The position numbers were made by a program, and so were the translations under genes. This document shows positions 1 to 39,142 of a stretch of 39,142 bases of DNA, piece by piece (position 1 is the first letter of the stretch; each line of letters begins with the position of its first letter). The DNA comes from a virus. The notes below the pieces were generated by a model. It was not told the origin of the DNA. It did not search any database and worked only from the letters and a program-made list of their open reading frames with translations. The stretch is taken from positions 1-39,142 of IMG/VR virus record IMGVR_UViG_3300045988_157503; one strand, 5' to 3'.

Positions 1-96
1 AAGCAAGGTGTCACAATTTCTTGTAACCCTTGCTTTTTTCTATATTACATAATTTAAATTAAGCAATAATTTCAGATACAACACCTGAACCTACTG
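1..96. repeat. Terminal direct repeat, copy 1 (identical to 39047-39142)
   Basis: Read directly: aagcaaggtgtcacaatttcttgtaaccc...cctgaacctactg occurs at both window ends. nt 1-40 carry the same hairpin plus T-run that terminates the integrase gene at 39047-39086. Confidence 0.95.
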
Positions 97-626: not shown

Positions 627-950
627 ATGTATATATTTGTGATAAAACCTTTGCGAGAAAAAAGAAATATAAGTTTATATAGTTTGAGTAAATTTACTGG
701 CATTTCTAGAACCTATCTAAGAAGTCTTGAGAATAATCAAGTATTTAACCCTACAATGCAAATTTTATATAAGATTGCTAATGCATTAAATGTTAGCATA
801 AAAGATTTGTTTTACTATGGAAATGATATCGAGAAGCTACGTGCAGAGATGCACAGCAGAATTGAAATTTTCGGACTAGATTCAAAAGAAGTTCTTGAAG
901 TTAGTCAAATTATAGATCTACTTATAAACGTCAAAATGAAAGAGAGCTAA
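627..950 (+). CDS. XRE-family HTH protein with a C-terminal Spo0E-like segment
   Basis: The N-terminus LREKRNISLYSLSKFTGISRTYLRSLENNQ..PTMQILYKIANALNVSIKDLF is a classic HTH_XRE. The C-terminus IEKLRAEMHSRIEIFGLDSKEVLEVSQIIDLLIN fits the Spo0E-family pattern (..LR....gL....vlevSQ.lD.LI). RBS is TAGGAG. Confidence 0.7.
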   Translation: MYIFVIKPLREKRNISLYSLSKFTGISRTYLRSLENNQVFNPTMQILYKIANALNVSIKDLFYYGNDIEKLRAEMHSRIEIFGLDSKEVLEVSQIIDLLINVKMKES

Positions 951-1193: not shown

Positions 1194-1283
1194 AGAAAAT
1201 TGCGTAAAATCAAGGAAAAATCGACGTTCTAAAATCGATTTTAAGGCGTTTTTATTTTTGAGACAACAAGTTATATGGCTCAA

Positions 1284-1307
1284 AAAAAGACTATTGCTAG
1301 TCTTTTT
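1284..1307. terminator. Bidirectional rho-independent terminator closing the PanA-like operon
   Basis: AAAAAGACTA-TTGC-TAGTCTTTTT: an A-run, an 8-10 bp stem and a T-run. It lies 11 nt past the stop of the 135-aa gene. Confidence 0.7.
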
Positions 1308-1317
1308 CTTCTTATTA

Positions 1318-1725
1318 TTAATTTCCGTGATTGTATGCACTAAAATCCCAATCATATCCTATTATATATAATATAGAATTACATTCTTGTGAACGAACAC
1401 CTAATATTCTTGATTTTTGATTATTAAATCTAAAAACTATAATTTTACTATCCTCTGACAAACTCAATGGTCTTTTAATATTATCAAAACTAATATTAAA
1501 ATTGCTTATAGGTATCATTTCATATCCTGTTTCTTTTGGTTTGTTTTGTAAATCTAACCATGTTAGATTTGATATTTCTTCTAATCTCTCAAATAAATTC
1601 TGAATTGATTTATTACATTTTTCTTTTGATTTAGTAACTTTCTCCGTAGTATATTTTTTATTTTTTATTGAATATTTAAAAGATAATATTATATGATTAC
1701 CGTTGGCTGTACAACAATTATTCAT
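1318..1725 (-). CDS. Hypothetical 135-aa protein, putative toxin partner of the Panacea-domain protein
   Basis: The start codon overlaps the upstream stop (TAATG at 1727-1723), indicating translational coupling. The protein is soluble and Lys-rich. The C-terminus IIVFRFNNQKSRILGVRSQECNSILYIIGYDWDFSAYNHGN is only vaguely RelE-fold-like, and I cannot assign a family. Confidence 0.45.
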   Translation of the reverse strand: MNNCCTANGNHIILSFKYSIKNKKYTTEKVTKSKEKCNKSIQNLFERLEEISNLTWLDLQNKPKETGYEMIPISNFNISFDNIKRPLSLSEDSKIIVFRFNNQKSRILGVRSQECNSILYIIGYDWDFSAYNHGN

Positions 1726-2165
1726 TAAGCAATTTGAGTTTTAAAATAGTCTTTGATTTTTTGTTTTGGAATAACTGAATTTCTTGGAGTAGTTTGCCAC
1801 GGACTAGTCTCATGAGTCATATTTCTTAATTTCCATGCTGAATATTGTCCAAACTCATTATATACTTCTTCTAATATTCTTATTGTTTCTCCATCTATAT
1901 TTACTTTGAAATCTTCATCATATTTTATTCCACTTGAACCATTTGATTTGTATCTATCATATATTTTTCTAATTACAGGTCCATGCTCCCATGCTAAAAA
2001 CTCATCATCAAATAAAGGAGTGTCTTTCTTAGCTAAAACATATCCTTGAGCATAATATAATAATTTTTGTAATTTCAAGTTTGTAATATATTCTGAATCT
2101 TCAAAATTCATTTGTACTCTGTTTCTGTTTAAAAACCATTCTGCTATATCTTTTGCTTTATACAT
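1725..2165 (-). CDS. Panacea / DUF4065 (SocA/GepA-like) domain protein, putative PanA-type antitoxin
   Basis: DIAEWFLNR...ITNLKLQKLLYYAQGYVLAKKDTPLFDDEFLAWEHGPVIRKIYDRYK matches the DUF4065 signature (KLqKLlYyaqg...g.pLf...f.AW.hGPV...iY..yk). RBS is AAGGGGGAG. Confidence 0.75.
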   Translation of the reverse strand: MYKAKDIAEWFLNRNRVQMNFEDSEYITNLKLQKLLYYAQGYVLAKKDTPLFDDEFLAWEHGPVIRKIYDRYKSNGSSGIKYDEDFKVNIDGETIRILEEVYNEFGQYSAWKLRNMTHETSPWQTTPRNSVIPKQKIKDYFKTQIA

Positions 2166-2212
2166 GTTTACTCCCCCTTTTTACTATTATATACACTTCA
2201 AAGAAATATATT

Positions 2213-2280
2213 TATTGAATGTCACATACTTACTATTATGTGACATTCAATATTATATAATATAATAAAATTACTGTCAA
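2213..2280 (-). promoter_or_regulatory. Consensus promoter plus palindromic operator of the PanA-like operon
   Basis: Minus strand: TTGACA (2280-2275), 17 nt, TATAAT (2257-2252). This is followed immediately by a perfect 15-bp inverted repeat, TATTGAATGTCACAT (2213-2227) and ATGTGACATTCAATA (2238-2252), with a 10-nt spacer covering the predicted +1. Confidence 0.65.
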
Positions 2281-2290
2281 TGTTTAGGCA

Positions 2291-2316
2291 AAAAAATAAG
2301 CTAGGCAGTGCCTAGC
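2291..2316 (-). terminator. Rho-independent terminator (minus strand)
   Basis: GCTAGGC-AGT-GCCTAGC stem-loop (2300-2316) preceded on the plus strand by AAAAAATAA, which is a T-run on the minus strand. It shares the 17-nt AAAAAATAAGCTAGGCA with the terminator at 9353-9381. Confidence 0.55.
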
Positions 2317-2450
2317 AAGTAAATATATAAGTATTTTACTATTCTTACATTTATTGGCGCACAAAAACCCATAATTTTCCAAAAAGTTCTTGATAATATT
2401 ATATAAAGTATGTTATTATATAATATATAGCTTAAAAAGGAGATAATTGT

Positions 2451-2795
2451 ATGCTTAGTATTATAGAATTTGTATTTTCACTTATCGGAATTATTGGATA
2501 TTTTAATGATAATATTGTTTGTATGATAATAGGCTTAGTAGGAATAATTATTGGCGATTTTATAGATACGTTTATATTCGGTAATAACCCATTTACAATA
2601 CTCTTAGCAATAATTATAGCAATCGGTGCAACAATTGCCAACAAAAATCCATTATATAATTTTACAGTTTTGATGTGCGGAGAAAGTTTTCTAACATTTG
2701 GCGTTGGTCTATTGATAATTTTAATAAATTATTTAATTTCTCTTATTAAAAAAGAAAATATAAATAATAAAGAAGAGCCTAGACTAAATAAATAG
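2451..2795 (+). CDS. Small multi-pass membrane protein (114 aa), plus-strand accessory gene
   Basis: RBS is AAAGGAGA, 8 nt before the ATG. There are about four hydrophobic segments (IIEFVFSLIGIIGYF, MIIGLVGIIIGDFI, ILLAIIIAIGATI, FGVGLLIILINYLISL). No family recognised. Confidence 0.6.
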   Translation: MLSIIEFVFSLIGIIGYFNDNIVCMIIGLVGIIIGDFIDTFIFGNNPFTILLAIIIAIGATIANKNPLYNFTVLMCGESFLTFGVGLLIILINYLISLIKKENINNKEEPRLNK

Positions 2796-2801
2796 TCTAG
2801 G
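2778..2801. terminator. Bidirectional terminator between convergent genes
   Basis: CCTAGACTA-AATAAA-TAGTCTAGG (9-bp stem) followed by TTTCTTCTTTTTTT. It overlaps the TAG stop of 2451..2795. Confidence 0.65.
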
Positions 2802-2813
2802 TTTCTTCTTTTT

Positions 2814-5800
2814 TTAATAAGTATATGAATTATTTTTGTAAACAGTTACCCCTGCAAATTTACTCATAATTTCTAGTTTTTCTTTTACTGTCCTGTTTGG
2901 CATATTTCTTACATAATTTTCTACTATTTCTCTATCTGAAGAACTACTTGGTTTGTATTCTAATGCATATAAAATAAGTTTTTGAGTGTATGTAGCTCCT
3001 TTTATTGAGTCAATATAATCAAATACTTTGTCTTTCTTGCTTCCTGTTATCGACTTTCCATTAACTGTTCCATCGTCTTTCTTATCTGCTTTAAATTCTT
3101 GTGCTTTATATTGCAAGTACTTACTCATATTTAAGCCCGAGCCTGTAAAAGATTCTTTAACTATATCATATTTTGTATCCTTTTTTCCTAGTGAATTTTC
3201 ATATATTGCCTTTTTAGTTTTTTCATTGCATTTACTATTGGCAAGAACCTCTAATTTTTCTGAATCTTTGTCTAATCCTTGAGTGTTAGCTAAAAATTCA
3301 AAATAATTGCTAGTATTGCCACCGGCTTTTTTAATAGCATTTGTTACTTGTGATAATGTACTCTGTTCATTCTTCAAGCAATTTTGTCTAGCATAATCAA
3401 TTTTTATTTGTTCTGTACTATAACTATATACCTTTTCTATTGCTAATTGCTTTTGAGAATCGGACAATTTTTTATATCCATCAGAATTTATTAAATTCTT
3501 TAATAATTCATATGAAGTTTCTCCAAATTGTTTTTTATATTTAGCAAATTCTTTTGATGTCATAACATATTTCTTTTTATCTATTGTCAGATTCTTGTTT
3601 ATAGTATCAGGGAATACTGAACTTTCTCCAGTGTTCTCATACACCTTAGTAATCTCTTTGTCTACATTGTTTGAATTTAATTCTTTTCTTGCCCATGGGA
3701 ATACTGCATTTTCCAATGCTCTTAAAGCAATGTTATCTGATTGTTTCTGTTCTTGTCCCCATATATCAGTTTTTATTGGAAGTTTTTGTCTTAATCCAGG
3801 GATTTTATTCATTATTTGAGTTCTTGTTGTATCTATTGCTTTTGGTAATACACCTGTTTTTGTCGAAGTAGTATTTCTTTCATATTCATCAGTTGTTTTA
3901 GCAATTTGACCTAAAGCTGTTGGTATAAATTGATTTACGTATGATTTAATTGAATTTGTTCCTATACCAGCCAACATTTTTGAACTTCCTTGATTATAGC
4001 TTTTAAGTGCAGATGTCAAACCACTAAGCATAGACATTTCAGTCATTGGGTTCATTGCATTAGTAAATGAATCTAGAATATTCATTGATGCATTAATTAC
4101 TTTGTTATAGTATTCATCCTCATCACTAGAAGATGTTTTCTTTTCTTTTTGTGCTTTCATCAATTCATAACATTCTGCTCCTATAAATAATGGAATACCT
4201 GATGGAGCAAGCCAGTCTAATGAATATGTATTGTTTCCAATTGTTATTGCATAGTTTTGACTGCCTCTTCCTTCTTCAAATTTTTCCTTGTCTTCATCAT
4301 CGCTTCCAGTTGCCTTTAAGACTCCACAGTTTGCAAGAGCATATCCCACTAATGCTATTCCTGTTCCTGTTAATCCTTTAGAAATGTTGTCTATATATTT
4401 ATTAGCTGTAATATTACCTTTTCTTAACTGAGCTGTATCATATACTGCACTCTTTACTAGACCAACTGGACTATATTCTAGCCCAGCTTTTGCGACATTT
4501 ATAGGTGTCTTCTTGAATGGCAATGTAGCATCTAATACGAACTTTGAGAATTTATTCTTATTAGATAATTGATTTATCAATGAAGCTAATTGGCTGTCTT
4601 GATGAAATGTAGCTTCCTTTGCCTGTTCAATAGCAAAATTTCTTGCTTTTCCTAGCTGTTGGTCTGTTATAGTGTCTGGAGTTAATTTGTTTGCAGTCAT
4701 GTATTCTGATAGAGCTTTTACATAACCTGCTTTTAATCCCCAACCATCTTCTGCTTCTAGTGCTTTATTATTTAAGTCAAACGCTTTTCCAATTGTATTT
4801 TCCATTGCATCGCTTTTGAATGTACGCATATTATTTTCTAGTCTAGTTTTGGGATTATATTTATTTTCATTTAAGCCTAGTCTGTCAACAACATTTTCTA
4901 TATCTGCCTTAGCAAATGCTTTTACTTCTTTGCTAGCTGGAATTACGGTATGATTTCTTTCCATGTATGGATTTATTTTGCTTACCGCACTTTCTATTCC
5001 TCCTGCAACTTTATTCTTTATTCCTTGTACTCCCCCCATTGCTGTATTTCCTACAATGTTTCTTATATGGGTTCTAGGATTAGCCAACATTGAGAAATAT
5101 CTCCAGGCATCAATTTTTTGTGCCGTTGTTTTTGTTACTTGTTGTCCTAACTCTTTATATACTTCATTTAAGTTTTGTTCTAGTACTTTAGCGTTATCAG
5201 AGTTAGTAATTTTGTTTAACATTTCTGGTGTCAATTTAAATTGTTCCGCATCTTCTCCTCTTGTTCTTTTTAAGTCTTTGTTCATTTTGTCTACTGACCT
5301 TTGCAACCACACTACTTGACCTTCTGGAGTTTGATGATTTAACAAAGACATTGCTTGTACTGTTTGACCAGCTGTTGTTCCTGCCATTGCTGTTGCTTGA
5401 ATGGCGTCCTGCAATTTTGTTTTATTACCAGTTTTGGAATAATATTGTATTAACCTTTCTCCTATTGCTATATCTTCAGCTTTTATAGTACCTCCAGTAG
5501 TTGCTCTTGATAGTAAAGACGCTAATTCGCTATCAGCTCCAGTTGTTGATATTCTGTCATCAGCTAATTCTAATTGTTTTGAGTTGGATTCTGGAACATA
5601 AGTATCAGTTCCCATTAAACTTTTAGCAATTGCCTTTGCTTCATCAGTTGTATAGTTACTTTTTATTATTGACTCATAATGCTTTCTTCTTTTTTCGCCC
5701 TCTTTCTTCTGTTTAGTCCACTCGCCAGTTTCTAATTCATTAGAGGTATCTTGTGTTTTTGAACTTTCATTCATATTAAAAGAAGTAGAATTATCTACTC

Positions 5801-8195
5801 CTTGTTTTCTATTATTTCCTTCGTTTTTAATATTACTTGTCTGTTGGTTGCTGTTGGGCGTTCCTTCAGAAATTCCAACATTTTTTTCTGCTGTTCTTCC
5901 GTTTTTAAATTTGTCATTGATGTCATACACGCTTCTTCTTCCAGTCCCGCTTTCCTCATCATTTTCAATATTTGCTTCACTAATTCTGTTACTTGTATCA
6001 CTTCTATCAATCCCTTCATTTAAAATATTAGTTTCAGTTTTATCTTTAACTAATCCTAGGTTTTCCCAGCTTTCAACTAACTTTACCGGAACTTGTTCTA
6101 TTCCTAATTCACTTGCAATCTTTAGTCTGTGATTTCCATTTTCAATAGCAAATGTTCCGTCATTTTTTCTGTATATTTCAATTGGCTCTACAATCCCTTT
6201 CTGTCTTATACTTTCTCTTAAACTTTCTATTTGTTCGGTTGTTCTATGTCCTCCATCTTTAGCCAATTGGCTCAAATCATTAGTATTTATATTTTTAGTT
6301 TCGCCTAATTGTAAATTATTATACTCTTTAATATTATTTTTTTCAATACTATTTGGGACATTTTGACTACTTCTAGTTTTATTTACAGCATTATTTATTG
6401 TATTTACCCACTCGTCTGATGTAAATTTCTGAAAAGCCACTGATGTTTTTGATTGACTATCATATTGTGTTATACTTTTACTTGGCTCTATATCAAACCA
6501 ACTTTTATATGCAATTTGCTCTATCTCTGCATTGCTTTTGTTAGCTATTCTCTTGCCAATCTCGTCTGCAACAGTCAACCATTGCTTTACAGTTCTTCTT
6601 CCATTTCTGTTAGTAGGTGTCATATCTAATACTTCATTTACCTCTGTTGAATCATAGGTATTAGTATCATTCTTATACTGCATATACTTCTTTCTTCTTG
6701 TTTGATCATTTTTAGAATCTATTTTTGTGTCTAATCTATTTGCATCTTCTAAAGAGTTAATATTTTGCCTTATTGAACTAACATCCGCATCTGATACTTC
6801 ATTCATATTGTTTAATACATCTAACATCATACTTTTATAATCTTCTGATATATTACTATTTGTTATTTCTTTACTTGCCATTTGTTTCAATTGATTTGAA
6901 TATGTGTTTTCTGTGTTTACTGTTGGCAAAGAATTTTGTTCTACATTTGTATTGCTACTTGTTTGTTGCTCTTGTGTTATATATCCATCTCCATTTATTA
7001 CTTTTTGAGCCTCATCTATTCTTGAATTTACTTCATTTGTCTTGTTTTGTTGTTGTACTTCTTTATATGTACTTCCGCCTAAACCTAAAGCATTTAATGC
7101 CAACGTTGTTAATACTGTTATTTTTGCAGTTTCTTTTAATTTGTCAAAGTCCACTACTTTACCATCATCTTGATACATAAATTTGTCAACTATATTTTGA
7201 CCTATATCCGTTAATACTTCTTCTAATACTTCACCACCTACTTCATATCCCTTACTTGCTATTTTTTGACCAACTTCTGATTTAATATTTTTTGAAATGA
7301 AGTTAACTGCTGTATTATCCAAGGTTCCCTTTGGTAGGAACTTAATTCCTCCTGTTAGCTTTTCTGCACCTACTTCAATAGCTCCTTTTAAATCTCCGGC
7401 AAGTTTTGCTTTTTGGATGTTATTTTCCTTTAATAGTCCTTCTCCCGAAGCATCTCCTGAAGAAGACATAAACATTGCTACATTTCCTGTTCCTGGCATT
7501 AGTGCATTCAATGCCATAGTTGGGGCCATATTACCTAAATTTCGACTAATATTCCCTAATGTCTGCATTGTTGGAGAAAGTTCTTGAGTTGCTATTGCAT
7601 CAGCATTTTTATCAGCTTGAGTCTTTCTTATCTGTTCTACTAAATTCTTGTTAGTTTCTTCCAATCTTTTTCTTCCATTTTCATCTGTAAATTTAGCTAA
7701 AATCTTGTTATCTAATACCCTTTGATTATCGTCTGCAACTGATGTTTGCAGATATTGTCCAATAGATTTTCCCCAACCAGTTATCGCTCCTTTAGCAGTA
7801 TCTATTAAATATCTGGTTTTTGCTGGAAAACTTACTTTAGGATCATTTGACTTCATATCTTCGTAGGTTTGAGAGGATATTGAAGATTCTCCAAGTGGTT
7901 GCAAATCCTCTTTTGCAGTTTTTAATGTTTCGTTTTCTTTTTTTAATGTATTTATCAATCTTGAATCACTAAAAGGATTGCTTATCTCTCCTGTTCTTCT
8001 TGAATTTGCAATAAAACCTGCTTTTGGTAATTCATATATTTTTTGATCATCTTTTCTTTTCATTTTAGAACTTGCTGTCGGTAACTCTTGAGAGCTTGAT
8101 GTATCTCTTGTTGTTTGTTTTTCTTCTTCCATTGCAGTTGCTATTTTATTTATTTTTTTCTTTTCTTCATCTGACAATTTAAATTTTATTGCCAT
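2814..8195 (-). CDS. 1793-aa polyvalent-type protein with an internal ParB/sulfiredoxin-like nuclease domain (probable virion-delivered protein)
   Basis: Single uninterrupted ORF with a GGAGG RBS. Around aa 640-710 (nt about 6070-6275), GGHRTTEQIESLRESIRQKGIVEPIEIYRKNDGTFAIENGNHRLKIASELGIEQVPV fits a ParB-like domain (xGxHR motif). Gly/Ala-rich hydrophobic stretches and a long unassigned C-terminal half follow. Confidence 0.7.
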   Translation of the reverse strand: MAIKFKLSDEEKKKINKIATAMEEEKQTTRDTSSSQELPTASSKMKRKDDQKIYELPKAGFIANSRRTGEISNPFSDSRLINTLKKENETLKTAKEDLQPLGESSISSQTYEDMKSNDPKVSFPAKTRYLIDTAKGAITGWGKSIGQYLQTSVADDNQRVLDNKILAKFTDENGRKRLEETNKNLVEQIRKTQADKNADAIATQELSPTMQTLGNISRNLGNMAPTMALNALMPGTGNVAMFMSSSGDASGEGLLKENNIQKAKLAGDLKGAIEVGAEKLTGGIKFLPKGTLDNTAVNFISKNIKSEVGQKIASKGYEVGGEVLEEVLTDIGQNIVDKFMYQDDGKVVDFDKLKETAKITVLTTLALNALGLGGSTYKEVQQQNKTNEVNSRIDEAQKVINGDGYITQEQQTSSNTNVEQNSLPTVNTENTYSNQLKQMASKEITNSNISEDYKSMMLDVLNNMNEVSDADVSSIRQNINSLEDANRLDTKIDSKNDQTRRKKYMQYKNDTNTYDSTEVNEVLDMTPTNRNGRRTVKQWLTVADEIGKRIANKSNAEIEQIAYKSWFDIEPSKSITQYDSQSKTSVAFQKFTSDEWVNTINNAVNKTRSSQNVPNSIEKNNIKEYNNLQLGETKNINTNDLSQLAKDGGHRTTEQIESLRESIRQKGIVEPIEIYRKNDGTFAIENGNHRLKIASELGIEQVPVKLVESWENLGLVKDKTETNILNEGIDRSDTSNRISEANIENDEESGTGRRSVYDINDKFKNGRTAEKNVGISEGTPNSNQQTSNIKNEGNNRKQGVDNSTSFNMNESSKTQDTSNELETGEWTKQKKEGEKRRKHYESIIKSNYTTDEAKAIAKSLMGTDTYVPESNSKQLELADDRISTTGADSELASLLSRATTGGTIKAEDIAIGERLIQYYSKTGNKTKLQDAIQATAMAGTTAGQTVQAMSLLNHQTPEGQVVWLQRSVDKMNKDLKRTRGEDAEQFKLTPEMLNKITNSDNAKVLEQNLNEVYKELGQQVTKTTAQKIDAWRYFSMLANPRTHIRNIVGNTAMGGVQGIKNKVAGGIESAVSKINPYMERNHTVIPASKEVKAFAKADIENVVDRLGLNENKYNPKTRLENNMRTFKSDAMENTIGKAFDLNNKALEAEDGWGLKAGYVKALSEYMTANKLTPDTITDQQLGKARNFAIEQAKEATFHQDSQLASLINQLSNKNKFSKFVLDATLPFKKTPINVAKAGLEYSPVGLVKSAVYDTAQLRKGNITANKYIDNISKGLTGTGIALVGYALANCGVLKATGSDDEDKEKFEEGRGSQNYAITIGNNTYSLDWLAPSGIPLFIGAECYELMKAQKEKKTSSSDEDEYYNKVINASMNILDSFTNAMNPMTEMSMLSGLTSALKSYNQGSSKMLAGIGTNSIKSYVNQFIPTALGQIAKTTDEYERNTTSTKTGVLPKAIDTTRTQIMNKIPGLRQKLPIKTDIWGQEQKQSDNIALRALENAVFPWARKELNSNNVDKEITKVYENTGESSVFPDTINKNLTIDKKKYVMTSKEFAKYKKQFGETSYELLKNLINSDGYKKLSDSQKQLAIEKVYSYSTEQIKIDYARQNCLKNEQSTLSQVTNAIKKAGGNTSNYFEFLANTQGLDKDSEKLEVLANSKCNEKTKKAIYENSLGKKDTKYDIVKESFTGSGLNMSKYLQYKAQEFKADKKDDGTVNGKSITGSKKDKVFDYIDSIKGATYTQKLILYALEYKPSSSSDREIVENYVRNMPNRTVKEKLEIMSKFAGVTVYKNNSYTY

Positions 8196-8204
8196 AACTT
8201 CCTC

Positions 8205-9341
8205 CTATTGTTTACTCCAGTATTGAATTACTTCTTCTGGAGAACTGAAATATTTTCCGGAATACTTATCATAAATATTTTTACTGATGCCAGGACCCGA
8301 AAGTGTTTTTAGTCCTTTAATAATATCTTGTAATGTTATATTTTGGGTAGTTTCAGCATTCGCTTTAGCACTATCTCCAAAAGTTTTAGTATTAGAGCTA
8401 CTACTTTTTTTCGAACTGCTTGAGCTTCTTGAACTACCCGAGCTACTAGATTTTTTTTTTGAAAGCTCATATTGTTTTAGTGCTAAATCAAATTCCTTTT
8501 GCCATTGACTGTCTGAAACTTTGTCCCTACCTACTTTGTAGTTATAATCTCTATCGTTCATTGCTTTTGTGTAATCATAATTTGCAAAATTCATGTAATT
8601 CTTTAGCGCATCTTGATATCTGTTATAAGATAATTCATTGTTATATTTTTGTAACTCTAACCTAGCATTTTCTATGTCAGCTAATAATTCATTTTCTTTT
8701 GCCATGTATTGTAATTGTGTATTATTTAATTCTTGATTTATATTTTGAATTGATTTATCTCTATTGGCTTGCAATGAAGCTAAATTATTGCCATAAGCAT
8801 TCTCAATGTTTGCATATGCACTTCCCACAGTTCCTGTTTTATCTAAACCTGCTTGCGACAATTGTTGTTCCATTGATTTTTTTGCTAGCATAGAATTAAT
8901 GTATGCTTGTCTAGCATTATCATTGTATGATTGCATCACATCGTCTTTTTGTGCATTTATTTGATTTGTTGCTATTTGTTGTTGGTTTGTTAATGCATTT
9001 TTTCTACTTTCTGCTATTTTTTCGTATTGTGCTAGTAATGTTTGTGAATCATTTCCAACATTTGATGTAGCTTTATTTGCATAAGCTTCTGCTAACTGTT
9101 GTGTTGTTTTTGTAGGTTGATTGGGCTGAGCCTGAGTTGTTTGTGTCGGTTGTGTAGCAACTGTAGTTCCAGTAGTTTTAACTGTATTTGTTTGTCCTGG
9201 CAATTTTAACGTATTTCCCGTATATATCAAGTTAGCATTTTTAATATATGGGTTTAGTCCCATAAGAGTACTTACACTTGTATTATATCTTTTTGCTATT
9301 CCGCTTAATGTATCTCCACTTTTTATTTTATATGTTGACAT
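8205..9341 (-). CDS. LysM-domain protein with coiled-coil and poly-Ser regions (378 aa)
   Basis: The N-terminus [46 protein letters not shown] is a canonical LysM. A Gln/Asn-rich coiled coil follows, then [22 protein letters not shown] is AGGAGGGA. Confidence 0.75.
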
Positions 9342-9352
9342 CTTTCCCTCCT

Positions 9353-9382: not shown

Positions 9383-10363
9383 TTATTTCATTTGAATACC
9401 GATAATTGTATGTCCGTAAATTCCAGCATAGCTCTCAGTTCCTTGCTCAGTTCTACTATCTACATAAGGCAACCAACCATCTTCAGCAGTTTTAACACGA
9501 TATGTTACATGACCTTTTGTTGATTTAATTTTAATGCAATCAATGGGCTGTCCATATATACCTGCGTAAGAGTTTGGATTGCTCTTATCGTTTTTCTTAT
9601 AGTTCTTTGAGCTAATTTTATCTAACCAACTTCCATTTTTAATATGTGCTTGAACTGTTATTTCTCCAAATTCAGGCTTACAACGAAGTCCACTTATTGC
9701 TTTTCCATACAAACCTGCATATCCTTCGTCTGAGCTATCACATTTATTTACTTCTGGTAGCCATTGGTCTGTGTATGCCTGATAAGTGATTACTCCCGTA
9801 TAATCAGGTTCTGACGTTGGTTCTGGTGTTGGTGGTGTTGGTCCATCTACATCAAATTTTGGTCTACCATATCCTACTATTTCAGGAAGATTTAGTGGAT
9901 ATGAATGTTTTGCTACTTCACTATTGTTTGTATTTCCTTCTACTGTATAAACTCCGCCATTTTCTATTTTATAAACTAACCCTGTATGATATATGTCATC
10001 TCCATTACCAAAGAAAATTTGGTCGCCTACTTGTGGGCTGTTAAACAATCTTCCTTTTGATTTATAGAAGTTCATTGAAAAACTGCAACCAGCTCCTGTT
10101 GATTTCTTTGGTTGACACAATAATTCCAATGCTTTATCTACTCCAAAAGCTTGTACAAAGCACCAGTCCACAAAGATATCGCACCAATCATAACCGTTCT
10201 TTTTGCCATTATAAAAGCCCGCAATATTATCTAGATCGCGAGCATATTTATTATATTTTCCACTTATATTTGCTGTTTTGCTATCAAGTTGTGAATTACT
10301 CTTTTTTCCTTTATAGCCCACTTCATTTAAGGCTATTTCTATTACTTTATTAGCTTGTCCCAT
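9383..10363 (-). CDS. Endolysin: N-terminal CHAP domain plus three C-terminal ChW-like cell-wall-binding repeats
   Basis: CHAP Cys context GYDWCDIFVDWCF, and His/EGN context GDQIFFGNGDDIYHTGLVY...YTVEGNTNN. Three repeats of about 45 aa each contain GW/SW...YAG(I/L)YG..I.G/C(I/L)..K. Confidence 0.8.
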   Translation of the reverse strand: MGQANKVIEIALNEVGYKGKKSNSQLDSKTANISGKYNKYARDLDNIAGFYNGKKNGYDWCDIFVDWCFVQAFGVDKALELLCQPKKSTGAGCSFSMNFYKSKGRLFNSPQVGDQIFFGNGDDIYHTGLVYKIENGGVYTVEGNTNNSEVAKHSYPLNLPEIVGYGRPKFDVDGPTPPTPEPTSEPDYTGVITYQAYTDQWLPEVNKCDSSDEGYAGLYGKAISGLRCKPEFGEITVQAHIKNGSWLDKISSKNYKKNDKSNPNSYAGIYGQPIDCIKIKSTKGHVTYRVKTAEDGWLPYVDSRTEQGTESYAGIYGHTIIGIQMK

Positions 10364-22961: not shown

Positions 22962-23049
22962 TGGCGGAGAGAGTAGGATTCGAACCTACGAAGGTTTTAC
23001 CCTTGCTAATTTTCAAGACTAGTACATTAAGCCACTCTGCCATCTCTCC
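22962..23049 (-). tRNA. tRNA-Ser (anticodon UGA), type II with long variable arm, CCA encoded
   Basis: Folded by hand from GGAGAGA-TG-GCA..TGT-A-CTAGT-CTTGAAA-ATTAG-[CAAGGGTAAAACCTTCG]-GTAGG-TTCGAAT-CCTAC-TCTCTCC-G-CCA. The acceptor stem is 7 bp, the loop has U33 and A37, the anticodon is TGA, and the discriminator is G. Confidence 0.85.
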
Positions 23050-37857: not shown

Positions 37858-37885
37858 TGTTTCTTTTTTTAGAAAGGATTTGAAT

Positions 37886-39007
37886 ATGGCAAAGAAAACT
37901 AATTATTCTAAAAATGGCAAAAATTATTATAGAATCACAAAAACTATAAGTAAAAAACCTGACGGCACTTCAATAAAAAAAGAATTTTACGGTTCCTGCA
38001 AAGCGGAAGCTGAAGAAAAAGCAACTAAATATATTAATGATTTAAAGTTAGGATTAATCGAAAAAGATAAAAAGTATACTATAAATATATTGTTGCCACT
38101 ATGGTTATATGGGACCAAGAGAAACACAGTTAAAGCATCTACTTTAGACAGCTATGATGGTATATACAAAAAATATATTAAGCCTAATGTAATCTCAAAT
38201 ATTCCAATTAATGATATAAAAACTTTAAAAATACAAGAATATTATAATAATTTAGATACAACTGCTAGTAATGTTAAAAAGGTTCATAAACTACTTTACC
38301 AATTTTTCAATTATTCTGAAAAAGAAGGCTATATAGTTAAAAATCCTTGCAATAACGTTTCTCTTCCCAAAGAGAAAAAAACAACATTAGAAGTTTTAAA
38401 AAATAAATCTAAATTTCAATATTATAGTGAAGATGAAATAAAAAGGTTAAAGGAAGTTTTTAAAGATAATAAATTCAAAAATGTAGTTTTATTCGCTCTT
38501 GGAACAGGTATGCGAAGAGGAGAAATATTTGGACTGCAATGGTCTGACATTGACTTTGAAAAAAAAGAAATACATGTTATACACAATTTAACATATATTG
38601 CAACAAACATCACCGAGACTTCTAAAACTTATCATTTAACACTACAAACTCCAAAAACTGAAAACTCAATCAGGACTATACCTATGTCAGACAGTATTTA
38701 TAAACTATTAAAATCAATTTATGACATAAATTCAACTTATGTGTTTTCTCCTAACGACGGGCATTTTGATATAAAATATTTTGAAAAAGTTTATAAGAAA
38801 AAATTAAAAGAAGCGCATATCGAAAATAAGAACTTTCACGACTTAAGACACACATTTGCAACTATGTTATTGGCAAATGGAGCAGATCTTATAACGGTTA
38901 AAGAGTTGCTTGGTCATAGTTCAATAAAAACAACAGAAATATATTTAGAAGCATTACCTAAAACCAAAGAAGATGTTGTCAATAAAATCAATTTTATTTG
39001 TAACTGA
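37886..39007 (+). CDS. int: Tyrosine integrase
   Basis: The catalytic region contains [24 protein letters not shown] and [14 protein letters not shown] (R..HxxR..H..Y). The ATG at 37886 has GAAAGGA upstream (the ORF-track start is TTG 37880). Confidence 0.9.
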
Positions 39008-39046: not shown

Positions 39047-39086
39047 AAGCAAGGTGTCACAATTTCTTGTAACCCTTGCTTTTTTC
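39047..39086 (+). terminator. Rho-independent terminator of the integrase gene
   Basis: AAGCAAGG...CCTTGCTT outer stem plus an inner ACAA/TTGT stem with loop TTTC, followed by TTTTTT. Confidence 0.7.
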
Positions 39087-39142
39087 TATATTACATAATT
39101 TAAATTAAGCAATAATTTCAGATACAACACCTGAACCTACTG
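39047..39142. repeat. Terminal direct repeat, copy 2 (identical to 1-96)
   Basis: Read directly from the sequence. The repeat runs exactly to the window end. Confidence 0.95.

What the first reader, a model, noticed from the sequence alone, without database searches (positions are those of the whole stretch)
1284..2280. Panacea/DUF4065 antitoxin-like gene translationally coupled to an unassignable 135-aa partner, with textbook autoregulation architecture: candidate new PanAT-type toxin-antitoxin pair
- **Antitoxin candidate:** The 146-aa protein carries the DUF4065/Panacea signature (KLQKLLYYAQG...AWEHGPV..IYDRYK).
- **Background:** Panacea-domain proteins are known as promiscuous antitoxins (PanA) that pair with many unrelated toxin folds.
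- **Coupling:** The downstream 135-aa ORF overlaps it by 1 nt (TAATG).
- **Boundaries:** The unit has a perfect TTGACA-17-TATAAT promoter. A perfect 15-bp inverted repeat (2213-2227 / 2238-2252) sits over the predicted +1. A bidirectional terminator lies at 1284-1307.
- **Toxin candidate:** The 135-aa protein matches nothing I can name. Its C-terminal beta-strand-like pattern (IIVFRF...RILG...ILYIIGYD...AYNH) is only loosely RelE-like. It could therefore be an undescribed toxin family carried next to the phage attachment region.
Basis: partly seen in the sequence, partly recalled or inferred. Interest (0 to 1): 0.7.

Follow-up and report, generated by a model that had tools for sequence, protein, structure and literature searches.

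The report
Prophage PanA–PanT (T1) gene cassette
A temperate Clostridia phage carries a self-contained two-gene cassette, a Panacea-domain antitoxin plus a small partner protein; the partner belongs to a family already catalogued in 2022 as the largest predicted partner of such antitoxins, so this is a new member of a known, still unproven, toxin-antitoxin type.

Summary
On the minus strand, a 146-aa Panacea/DUF4065 protein (Pfam 86.8 bits) overlaps a 135-aa ORF by one base (TAATG). The unit has the window's only perfect TTGACA-17-TATAAT promoter, a 16-bp perfect inverted repeat, and a terminator hairpin on each side.

The partner is not an undescribed family:
- It matches phrog_8366.
- Its family profile matches Salmonella phage Emek orf161 (hhalign 98.6%). 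Kurata et al. 2022 list that protein in PanT cluster T1 as a predicted "mRNase".
- Of three T1 members they tested in E. coli, two were not toxic. One was toxic but was not rescued by its PanA.

The pairing itself is solid. PanA lay directly upstream in all 28 relatives examined, from Clostridia to Pseudomonas and enterobacterial phages. The two proteins co-diverge (r = 0.96) and both are under purifying selection.

Two AlphaFold models (pLDDT 89 and 91) weakly resemble HigB/RelE, but no sequence-level homology was found.

Autoregulation is not supported. PanA has no detectable DNA-binding domain. The same promoter and repeat drive unrelated PanA/partner cargos in sister phages.

Verdict: a new member of a known kind, of modest interest.

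The parts
2290..2316 (-). Upstream insulating terminator (GCTAGGC-ACT-GCCTAGC followed by TTATTTTTTT). It marks the 5' edge of the conserved cassette frame.
   Evidence: Called by the terminator scan. RNA fold -11.4 kcal/mol, z = -3.9. Homology with sister phages and MAGs begins exactly here.
2252..2280 (-). Sigma-70-type promoter TTGACA-17 nt-TATAAT.
   Evidence: 12 of 12 matches. Unique in the window, 0.05 expected by chance. Identical in six related contigs.
2213..2252 (-). Perfect inverted repeat (16-nt arms, 8-nt loop) covering the predicted +1. The core GAATGTCACATA-N8-TATGTGACATTC is conserved in sister phages. Its role is unresolved: an operator for an unknown factor, or a 5'-terminal mRNA hairpin.
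   Evidence: RNA fold -21.5 kcal/mol, z = -8.1; a 9-bp 5' hairpin of -10.4 kcal/mol remains if transcription starts near 2245. No other copy in the window. The same repeat sits upstream of different cargos.
2171..2177 (-). Shine-Dalgarno sequence GGGGGAG, 5 nt before the panA ATG.
   Evidence: Read directly from the sequence.
1725..2165 (-). panA: a 146-aa stand-alone Panacea (DUF4065) protein with no extra N-terminal domain.
   Evidence: Pfam PF13274, E = 2.5e-24, 86.8 bits. phrog_1281, E = 2.5e-47. NCBIfam SocA equivalog 77 bits, below its cut-off of 190. 45.7% identical to the PanA of Salmonella phage Emek. dN/dS 0.15-0.37.
1318..1725 (-). Partner (PanT, cluster T1 / phrog_8366): 135 aa, start codon overlapping the panA stop (TAATG), no Shine-Dalgarno sequence of its own. 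It is a predicted small alpha/beta protein with near-invariant E69, R99, R106, D125, Y131 and H133.
   Evidence: AlphaFold2 pLDDT 88.7 and 90.6. Foldseek top hit is HigB 6kml_A, probability 0.90-0.94, E about 0.06. hhalign to Emek orf161 98.6%. dN/dS 0.14-0.37.
1282..1309 (.). Downstream terminator hairpin (12-bp stem, GCAA loop, flanked by A and T runs, so it is plausible in both directions). It marks the 3' edge of the variable cargo.
   Evidence: Homology with sister contigs that carry other cargos resumes at 1307 or 1316.

Best explanation
This is a lysogen-expressed accessory cassette (a "moron") of a temperate Clostridia siphophage. It encodes a PanA-PanT pair of the type that Kurata et al. 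2022 numbered T1.

**Transcription (inferred from sequence).** The cassette is its own transcription unit. An upstream terminator shields it from late-gene read-through. A consensus promoter drives it. A second terminator ends it.

**Translation (inferred).** panA is translated from a strong ribosome-binding site. The partner has none, and its ATG overlaps the panA stop codon. It is therefore probably made by termination-reinitiation, in amounts tied to and not exceeding PanA.

**The two proteins (inferred, with precedent).** PanA is a bare Panacea domain. By analogy with the stand-alone PanAs tested by Ernits et al. 2023, it most likely binds and neutralises the partner directly.

**The effector (inferred, weakest step).** The partner is a 135-aa alpha/beta protein. 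Its predicted fold most resembles the HigB/RelE microbial-RNase family. Its near-invariant residues (E69, R99, R106, D125 and the C-terminal Y131-x-H133) recall the acid/base sets of YoeB (Glu46/His83) and HigB (His54/Asp90/Tyr91/His92). The most likely activity is RNA cleavage that arrests translation when PanA is lost or is triggered.

**Biological role (inferred).** Prophage addiction, exclusion of superinfecting phages, or both. This fits the cassette's position at the accessory end of the prophage and the fact that the slot carries alternative PanA/partner alleles in sister phages.

**Shown here.** Panacea identity, operon anatomy, strict gene linkage, co-divergence, purifying selection, and membership of phrog_8366 / T1.
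For: - **Panacea domain:** 86.8 bits.
- **Operon anatomy:**
- **Gene linkage:** PanA lay directly upstream on the same strand in all 28 loci examined. These came from Clostridia MAGs, IMG/VR contigs, and Pseudomonas, Salmonella and E. coli phages; a few of them are duplicate or near-identical contigs.
- **Co-divergence:** PanA and partner distances correlate at r = 0.96; 0 of 2000 Mantel permutations reached that value.
- **Purifying selection:** dN/dS 0.14-0.37 for both genes.
- **Family size:** 462 clusters at 50% identity with E <= 1e-3.
- **Conserved residues across 210 members:** Y131 and H133 100%; E69, R106 and D125 98%.
- **Link to T1:** hhalign to Emek orf161 98.6% and to the EC.P3 partner 99.0%. 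phrog_8366 holds Emek orf161 and the Pseudomonas partner at about 1e-62 to 1e-66, and the window protein hits it at 9.4e-10. T1 is listed and labelled "mRNase" in PMC8832971.
- **Fold:** two AlphaFold2 models, pLDDT 88.7 and 90.6. E. coli HigB is the top Foldseek hit in both, and other HigB and RelE chains fill much of the top 16.
- **Catalytic precedent:** the critical residues of HigB include the last three, Asp90-Tyr91-His92 (PMC5027501).
- **Moron position and cargo swapping:**
Against: - No toxicity or neutralisation data exist for this protein.
- In E. coli, two T1 members (Emek and E. coli MOD1) were not toxic. The C. cadaveris member was toxic but was not rescued by its PanA.
- No sequence-level link to RelE/ParE was found. 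Pfam, NCBIfam and PDB HMM searches found nothing.
- hhalign gave under 2% probability against YoeB, HigB and RelE, and 9.9% against a HigB family alignment.
- The Foldseek matches are weak: E about 0.06, TM 0.40-0.51, and none at E <= 0.001.
- The model coordinates could not be inspected, so it is not shown that the conserved residues cluster in space.
- PADLOC found no defence-system match.
Confidence: 0.6

Rival explanations
1. This is a conserved two-protein module, but not a toxin-antitoxin pair. The partner is not growth-inhibitory on its own. It could be a regulator, an adaptor, or an effector that acts only on an invading phage or needs a trigger. PanA would then be its sensor or chaperone rather than a constantly required antidote.
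For: - Two of three T1 representatives were not toxic in E. coli, and the third was not neutralised by its PanA.
- Ernits et al. favour a sensor role for Panacea.
- The slot shows allele swapping typical of defence hot spots.
- No known toxin family was detected by sequence.
Against: - The non-toxic representatives are enterobacterial. Two sequences of that kind that I could read (Emek, which was one of those tested, and E. coli phage EC.P3) lack the otherwise 98%-conserved R106. They may therefore be poor proxies; the E. coli MOD1 sequence itself was not examined.
- One Clostridium member was toxic.
- Tight translational coupling with the antitoxin first, near-invariant polar residues, and a HigB-like top fold hit all fit an enzyme toxin.
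Confidence: 0.25
2. One reading: a classical autoregulated type II module. PanA, or the PanA-partner complex, binds the 2213-2252 palindrome and represses its own promoter.
For: - A perfect 16-bp inverted repeat directly abuts the -10 box and covers +1.
- It is unique in the window.
- Every cargo found behind this repeat starts with a Panacea protein.
Against: - PanA is a bare Panacea domain with no HTH, RHH or AbrB domain.
- The identical repeat precedes cassettes whose PanA is only 28% identical.
- More distant panAT loci have no comparable repeat.
Confidence: 0.1
3. The inverted repeat works at the RNA level or as a cassette boundary, not as an operator. It could be a 5'-terminal stem-loop that stabilises the mRNA in a Firmicute host. 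It could also simply be the last conserved element at which recombination exchanges cargos.
For: - A 9-bp hairpin of -10.4 kcal/mol remains at the very 5' end if transcription starts about 7 nt after the -10 box.
- Homology between sister contigs with different cargos ends exactly at the distal arm, window 2217.
Against: - The transcription start is only predicted. If +1 lies further downstream, the hairpin is lost.
- No compensatory changes are available to test pairing, because the sequences are nearly identical.
Confidence: 0.3

Closest known systems
PanAT systems, PanT cluster T1 (Kurata et al. 2022, PNAS, PMC8832971), e.g. Salmonella phage vB_SemP_Emek YP_006560565.1/YP_006560566.1 and Clostridium cadaveris WP_074844973.1/WP_074844970.1
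   Same: - The PanA is a stand-alone Panacea protein ("noNTD").
- The gene order is antitoxin then partner, with a -1 overlap (identical to the C. cadaveris entry).
- The partner is homologous to Emek orf161: hhalign 98.6%, and both fall in phrog_8366.
- The location is a phage or prophage.
   Different: - This is a Clostridia-phage member only about 25% identical to the enterobacterial proteins.
- It keeps R106, which the Emek, EC.P3 and Pseudomonas phage proteins lack.
- It has not been tested experimentally.
- T1 itself has never been validated as a toxin-antitoxin pair.
HigB / RelE / YoeB ribosome-dependent mRNA endonuclease toxins (RelE/ParE superfamily)
   Same: - It is a small alpha/beta protein with an N-terminal strand and helices followed by a three-strand antiparallel meander.
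- HigB is the top Foldseek hit for both models.
- Invariant Tyr and His lie at the extreme C-terminus, together with conserved Glu, Asp and Arg. This recalls HigB D90/Y91/H92 and YoeB E46/H83.
   Different: - No sequence or profile similarity was found (hhalign at most 9.9%).
- It is 30-40 residues longer, with an extra helix and strand.
- It pairs with Panacea rather than with HigA, RelB or YefM.
- Its activity is unknown.
SocAB type VI toxin-antitoxin system of Caulobacter crescentus
   Same: The antitoxin carries the same Panacea/DUF4065 domain.
   Different: - PanA scores 77 bits against the SocA equivalog model, whose cut-off is 190.
- The partner is unrelated to SocB.
- Kurata et al. found that PanAs generally neutralise by direct binding, not as ClpXP adaptors.
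Phage morons: autonomous promoter-gene-terminator units at prophage ends
   Same: - It has its own consensus promoter, with a terminator on each side.
- It lies between the lysis genes and the attachment/integrase region.
- It is present, absent or replaced among closely related phages.
   Different: Every cargo seen so far in this slot is a Panacea-led gene pair, which suggests allele exchange within one functional class.

Membership tests
PanAT (Panacea-antitoxin two-gene systems, Kurata 2022 criteria) | The antitoxin candidate carries the DUF4065/Panacea domain above Pfam's gathering score. | tested here: met
   PF13274, 86.8 bits against a cut-off of 25.7, E = 2.5e-24.
PanAT (Panacea-antitoxin two-gene systems, Kurata 2022 criteria) | [quoted passage not shown] | tested here: met
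   The overlap is -1 nt. PanA lay directly upstream in all 28 loci examined, across Firmicutes and Proteobacteria. Only about 870 bp, the two genes, is conserved between relatives, and the flanks differ.
PanAT (Panacea-antitoxin two-gene systems, Kurata 2022 criteria) | Reciprocity: relatives of the partner are themselves found next to PanA. | tested here: met
   Every partner homologue whose neighbourhood was fetched has PanA upstream. Co-divergence r = 0.96.
PanAT (Panacea-antitoxin two-gene systems, Kurata 2022 criteria) | The partner is toxic when expressed, and co-expressed PanA rescues growth. | not testable with these tools
   This needs expression assays. Published tests of three T1 relatives in E. 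coli gave two not toxic and one toxic but not rescued.
PanAT (Panacea-antitoxin two-gene systems, Kurata 2022 criteria) | PanA and the partner form a physical complex. | not testable with these tools
PanT cluster T1 / phrog_8366 | Homology to a listed T1 member. | tested here: met
   The family profile A2 matches Emek orf161 (YP_006560566.1): hhalign 98.6%, E = 1.3e-15; hmmsearch E = 2.3e-18. The window protein hits phrog_8366 at 9.4e-10 and Emek orf161 hits it at 9.1e-66. The T1 listing is in Dataset S1.
RelE/ParE superfamily (HigB-like mRNA endonuclease) | Sequence or profile similarity to a RelE/ParE/HigB/YoeB family. | tested here: not met
   No Pfam or NCBIfam hit for the window protein or for any of 54 members. 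PDB HMM searches were negative. hhalign gave 0.3-1.9% against YoeB, HigB and RelE, and 9.9% against a HigB alignment.
RelE/ParE superfamily (HigB-like mRNA endonuclease) | The microbial-RNase alpha/beta fold. | tested here: inconclusive
   E. coli HigB 6kml_A is the top Foldseek hit for two independent models (probability 0.94 and 0.90, E 0.061 and 0.067, TM 0.40-0.51). Other HigB and RelE chains rank high, but nothing reaches E <= 0.001.
RelE/ParE superfamily (HigB-like mRNA endonuclease) | Acid/base catalytic residues around a concave RNA-binding face. | tested here: inconclusive
   Near-invariant E69, R99, R106, D125, Y131 and H133 resemble the HigB and YoeB sets (PMC5027501).
SocAB (type VI toxin-antitoxin system) | A SocA equivalog antitoxin with a SocB-like partner. 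| tested here: not met
   NF047745 scored 77 bits, below its cut-off of 190. The partner has no SocB similarity in any library searched.
Classical autoregulated type II toxin-antitoxin operon | The antitoxin has a DNA-binding domain, and the operator co-occurs with it. | tested here: not met
   Only the Panacea domain was found in PanA. The repeat is not conserved in distant relatives. It is shared with cassettes that encode a PanA only 28% identical.

The most novel reading that the evidence does not exclude
T1 partners are PanA-gated RNases of a divergent HigB/RelE-like fold that phages carry as superinfection-exclusion weapons. The cassette seen here is one allele of a hot-swappable "PanAT slot": a constant terminator-promoter-hairpin frame and a constant downstream terminator, between which related Clostridia phages exchange whole PanA/effector pairs. 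Activity depends on the host or on a trigger. Together with the loss of R106 in the Emek-type enterobacterial proteins, that would explain why the largest PanT cluster failed validation in E. coli.
Probability: 0.25. Interest if true: 0.55.

Novelty: new member of a known kind. Interest (0 to 1): 0.33.

Why it matters
T1 appears to be the largest predicted PanA partner cluster: it fills the first parts of Dataset S1, and 462 clusters at 50% identity were found here. Yet it has no Pfam family, no validated activity, and ambiguous published tests. In RefSeq the partner gene is sometimes not even called, as in E. coli UMNK88.

This report contributes:
- a well-conserved Clostridia-phage member that retains all near-invariant residues;
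- a list of catalytic candidates for mutagenesis (E69, R99, R106, D125, Y131, H133);
- the observation that sister phages exchange different PanA/partner pairs within one fixed regulatory frame.

These give concrete handles for testing whether T1 pairs are toxins, defence modules, or something else. Nothing here overturns current views. The finding mainly extends a known catalogue.

Tried and rejected
- **Sequence searches of the partner** against Pfam, NCBIfam, PADLOC and PDB, as a single sequence and as two profiles, gave no meaningful hit. The PADLOC NsnC hit (E = 0.021) and the Pfam TgMIC1 hit (E = 0.053) were dismissed as noise.
- **hhalign of the family profile** against E. coli YoeB, HigB and RelE gave probabilities under 2%. 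Against a 22-sequence HigB alignment it gave 9.9%. The local register D92-K94...R106 against HigB D-K...R68 is suggestive but not significant, so it was not used as evidence.
- **Foldseek against BFVD** returned only uncharacterised proteins with weak scores.
- **blastn of the locus against GenBank phages** found no match.
It was redone with A1.
- **The T1 HHpred annotation** in Dataset S1 was sought. T1 rows read "NoTest", and no RNase, RelE or HigB terms occur in that part of the file. The basis of the authors' "mRNase" label could therefore not be verified.
- **The NetFlax supplements (PMC10440598)** contain none of the T1 accessions I searched for.
- **Conservation of the inverted repeat** upstream of panA was checked in 24 loci. 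It is found only in near-identical relatives. Other copies of the half-site in the window were sought and none was found beyond chance, so this is not part of a CI-type operator set.
- **An AlphaFold run on a PanA-linker-partner fusion** was considered and not attempted.
- **The C. cadaveris T1 protein sequence** could not be retrieved, so its homology to the window protein rests on the authors' clustering and on the Emek link.
Full report
**1. What is in the sequence**

The window is a complete, circularly assembled genome of a temperate phage with low G+C.
- Bases 1-96 repeat at 39047-39142.
- It has an integrase (37880-39007), an HTH repressor and an ImmA-like protease at one end.
- Portal, tail and lysis genes lie on the minus strand.
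- Identical proteins occur in "Caudoviricetes sp." records and in uncultured Clostridia MAGs from gut samples.

The finding lies on the minus strand.
- The 146-aa ORF is at 1725-2165. It is preceded by GGGGGAG 5 nt upstream of its ATG.
- The 135-aa ORF is at 1318-1725. Its ATG overlaps the stop codon of the first gene (TAATG), and it has no ribosome-binding site of its own.

Upstream regulatory features:
- TTGACA-17-TATAAT lies at 2280-2252, with 12 of 12 matches.
- It is the only perfect match in 39 kb, where 0.05 are expected.
- A perfect inverted repeat follows it directly. Its arms are 16 nt (2213-2228 and 2237-2252), one base longer than reported, with an 8-nt loop.
- This is the longest perfect hairpin-type repeat in the window.

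Two terminator hairpins flank the unit:
- Downstream of the operon, a hairpin at 1282-1309 folds at -11.8 kcal/mol (z = -4.3).
- Upstream of the promoter, a G+C-richer hairpin with a T-run lies at 2290-2316.

It describes a fully insulated two-gene transcription unit.

**2. The first gene**

- Pfam gives SocA_Panacea (PF13274) at 86.8 bits, E = 2.5e-24, covering the whole profile.
- PHROGs gives phrog_1281 at E = 2.5e-47.
- It is not a SocA equivalog: NCBIfam gives 77 bits against a cut-off of 190.
- No other domain is present. In the terms of Kurata et al. it is a "noNTD", stand-alone Panacea protein.

**3. The second gene is a real and widespread family, but not an undescribed one**

No curated library names it, and sequence searches of the PDB are empty. 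However:
- It has 69 close clusters in the 5.8-billion-protein set.
- A profile finds 462 representative clusters at 50% identity with E <= 1e-3, and 255 at E <= 1e-10. Members are 130-170 aa and show no fusions.
- Across 210 members, Y131 and H133 are invariant. E69, R106 and D125 are 98% conserved, G67 97% and R99 95%.
- dN/dS against relatives is 0.14-0.37, the same range as panA.

The window protein hits phrog_8366 at E = 9.4e-10. That PHROG holds two other proteins:
- the gene downstream of a Panacea gene in Pseudomonas phage vB_Pae_CF60a (E = 4e-62);
- orf161 of Salmonella phage vB_SemP_Emek (E = 9e-66).

The family profile matches Emek orf161 by hhalign at 98.6% (E = 1.3e-15). It matches the equivalent gene of E. 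coli phage EC.P3 at 99.0%.

Emek YP_006560565.1/YP_006560566.1 is listed in Dataset S1 of Kurata et al. 2022 (PMC8832971) as a predicted PanAT pair of toxin cluster T1. T1 is the first and apparently largest cluster, with antitoxin-then-partner order. The same cluster lists Clostridium cadaveris (gap -1, as here) and E. coli MOD1.

Their Table S1 labels these partners "mRNase" and reports the following:
- Emek: not toxic.
- E. coli MOD1: not toxic.
- C. cadaveris: toxic, but its PanA failed to neutralise it.

So the family was catalogued in 2022, and its status as a toxin remains open. I could not find the HHpred evidence behind the "mRNase" label in the held part of the dataset. I found no later paper that characterises it.

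**4. The pairing**

I fetched 28 loci that encode relatives of the partner:
- 13 from species-representative genomes, 12 of them Clostridia MAGs and one Riflebacteria;
- 12 IMG/VR contigs;
- three GenBank phages.

A few of these are duplicate or near-identical contigs.

In all 28, a PanA-family ORF lies immediately upstream on the same strand, overlapping or abutting the partner. Pairwise divergence of PanA and of the partner across 23 non-redundant loci correlates at r = 0.96, and 0 of 2000 Mantel permutations reached that value. At the nucleotide level only the two genes (about 870 bp) are shared between moderately related elements, and the flanks differ.

**5. What the partner might do**

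Two AlphaFold2 models were built from alignments of 30 and 54 sequences. Both are confident (pLDDT 88.7 and 90.6, pTM 0.85) and agree on the layout:
- a short N-terminal strand (13-15);
- helices (about 27-31, 34-52 and 56-61);
- a strand at 68-72 that carries G67 and E69;
- a short helix (81-84);
- a three-strand meander (94-100, 105-111, 118-125) that carries R99, R106 and D125;
- a C-terminal tail with Y131 and H133.

Foldseek against the PDB puts E. coli HigB (6kml_A) first for both models:
- Probability is 0.94 and 0.90, E is 0.061 and 0.067, and TM is 0.40-0.51.
- Further HigB chains and P. horikoshii RelE fall within the top 16.
- Nothing reaches E <= 0.001.
- BFVD gives nothing useful.

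Profile comparisons with YoeB, HigB, RelE and a HigB family alignment are not significant, at 9.9% or below.

The conserved residue set is nonetheless reminiscent of this RNase class. It comprises a Glu on an inner strand, two Arg on the hairpin, an Asp, and Tyr-x-His at the extreme C-terminus. For comparison:
- HigB depends on His54 plus its last three residues, Asp90-Tyr91-His92.
- YoeB depends on Glu46 and His83 (PMC5027501).

I therefore rate "divergent HigB/RelE-like RNase" as the best mechanistic guess, at roughly even odds. It is not a demonstrated membership.

One detail may bear on the published negatives. The Emek, EC.P3 and Pseudomonas phage proteins replace the 98%-conserved R106 with Ala or Pro, whereas the window protein keeps it. 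I did not examine the E. coli MOD1 sequence itself.

**6. Regulation: the autoregulation reading does not hold up**

- PanA has no DNA-binding domain.
- Ernits et al. [quoted passage not shown]
- Upstream regions of 24 panAT loci show no conserved palindrome beyond near-identical relatives.
- The half-site occurs nowhere else in the phage.

The most telling result came from an exact-pattern scan of IMG/VR for the repeat core, which returned five contigs.
- In all of them, and in MAG L002, one block is about 99% identical to the window. This block runs from the upstream terminator through the -35 box, the spacer and the -10 box to the repeat core GAATGTCACATA-N8-TATGTGACATTC.
- Identity ends exactly at the distal arm (window 2217) and resumes at the downstream terminator (window 1307 or 1316).

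Between these fixed points the cargo differs:
- The window, L002 and L036 carry PanA146 plus the T1 partner.
- L033 and L035 carry a 165-aa Panacea-like protein plus an unrelated 174-aa protein. The Panacea-like protein is 28% identical to the window PanA and scores 25.3 bits on PF13274, just under the cut-off. It hits phrog_1281 at 1.6e-24.
- L032 carries a 174-aa Panacea protein (30.4 bits) plus a 211-aa protein. These two proteins are 48% and 31% identical to the L033 pair.

The promoter and repeat are thus a constant frame shared by different PanA/partner alleles. They are not an operator matched to one antitoxin.

What the repeat does is unresolved. It could be an operator for another factor; the neighbouring HTH-Spo0E-like gene at 627-950 belongs to the constant frame. 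It could also be a 5'-terminal mRNA hairpin, since 9 bp (-10.4 kcal/mol) would remain if +1 is near 2245.

**7. Context**

In MAG L002 the cassette directly follows a homologue of the window's endolysin gene (9383-10363). In the window, about 7 kb of extra genes intervene. On the circular map the cassette lies about 1.3 kb beyond the end of the integrase gene. In a prophage it would therefore sit in the accessory region at the end opposite the integrase, the usual place for morons. Together with the cargo swapping, this fits a lysogen-expressed function such as addiction or exclusion of other phages. PADLOC does not recognise it, and no experiment supports any particular role.

**8. Verdict**

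It is a PanA-led, tightly coupled, strongly conserved gene pair of toxin-antitoxin type.
The partner family is already catalogued as PanT T1 / phrog_8366, and the "textbook autoregulation" is not supported.
- It is a new member of a known kind.
- Two things are of modest extra interest. T1 remains experimentally unvalidated despite its size. This phage lineage also exchanges whole PanA/partner pairs within a fixed promoter-hairpin-terminator frame.

Noticed in passing
window 1282-2316; loci L002, L032-L036: This is a swappable PanAT slot. The upstream terminator, the perfect promoter, the inverted-repeat core and the downstream terminator are about 99% identical in six related contigs. Between them sit three different cargos: PanA146 plus the T1 partner; a PanA-like 165-aa protein plus a 174-aa protein; and a PanA-like 174-aa protein plus a 211-aa protein. 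The 174-aa and 211-aa partners have no Pfam or PHROG hit and no similarity to the T1 profile.
   Followed up: partly
window 2814-8195 (-): A 1793-aa ORF sits between the lysis genes and the cassette. Its only recognisable domain is a ParB N-terminal / ParB-like nuclease domain at about residues 615-709. The whole stretch 2317-9352, which holds this gene, a 114-aa predicted membrane protein (2451-2795, +) and a 378-aa LysM protein (8205-9341), is absent from the related prophage L002. There the cassette directly follows the endolysin homologue.
   Followed up: partly
window 627-950 (+): A 107-aa protein fuses an HTH_3 (Cro/C1-type) domain (residues 9-61) to a Spo0E-like sporulation-regulator domain (residues 66-102; PF09388, E = 1.1e-9). 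It lies in the constant frame next to the cassette, convergent with a conserved 69-aa ORF (951-1160, -), and is separated from that ORF by a bidirectional terminator at 942-966. A phage-borne Spo0E-like phosphatase motif could influence host sporulation.
   Followed up: no
window 1-96 and 39047-39142: A 96-bp exact direct terminal repeat shows that the window is a circularly assembled, complete phage genome of 39,046 bp. The repeat itself contains a G+C-rich hairpin (AAGCAAGG...CCTTGCTTTTTT) just downstream of the integrase gene, in the probable attP region.
   Followed up: partly
L037 (E. coli UMNK88, NC_017641.1) 1950-2372 of the locus; L016: In RefSeq E. coli genomes that carry the EC.P3-type pair (34 of 5426 genomes), the Panacea gene is annotated. 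For most of the listed hits the only feature under the match is the Panacea gene. In UMNK88 no CDS is called at the partner's position (only a short ORF that clips its end), so the T1 family is under-annotated.
   Followed up: partly
family alignment, position 106 of the window protein: R106 is conserved in 98% of 210 family members. It is replaced by Ala or Pro in the Salmonella phage Emek, E. coli phage EC.P3 and Pseudomonas phage CF60a proteins. Emek is one of the T1 representatives reported as non-toxic in E. coli.
   Followed up: partly
window 22962-23049 (-): A phage-encoded tRNA-Ser (anticodon TGA) lies among the packaging and head genes.
   Followed up: no
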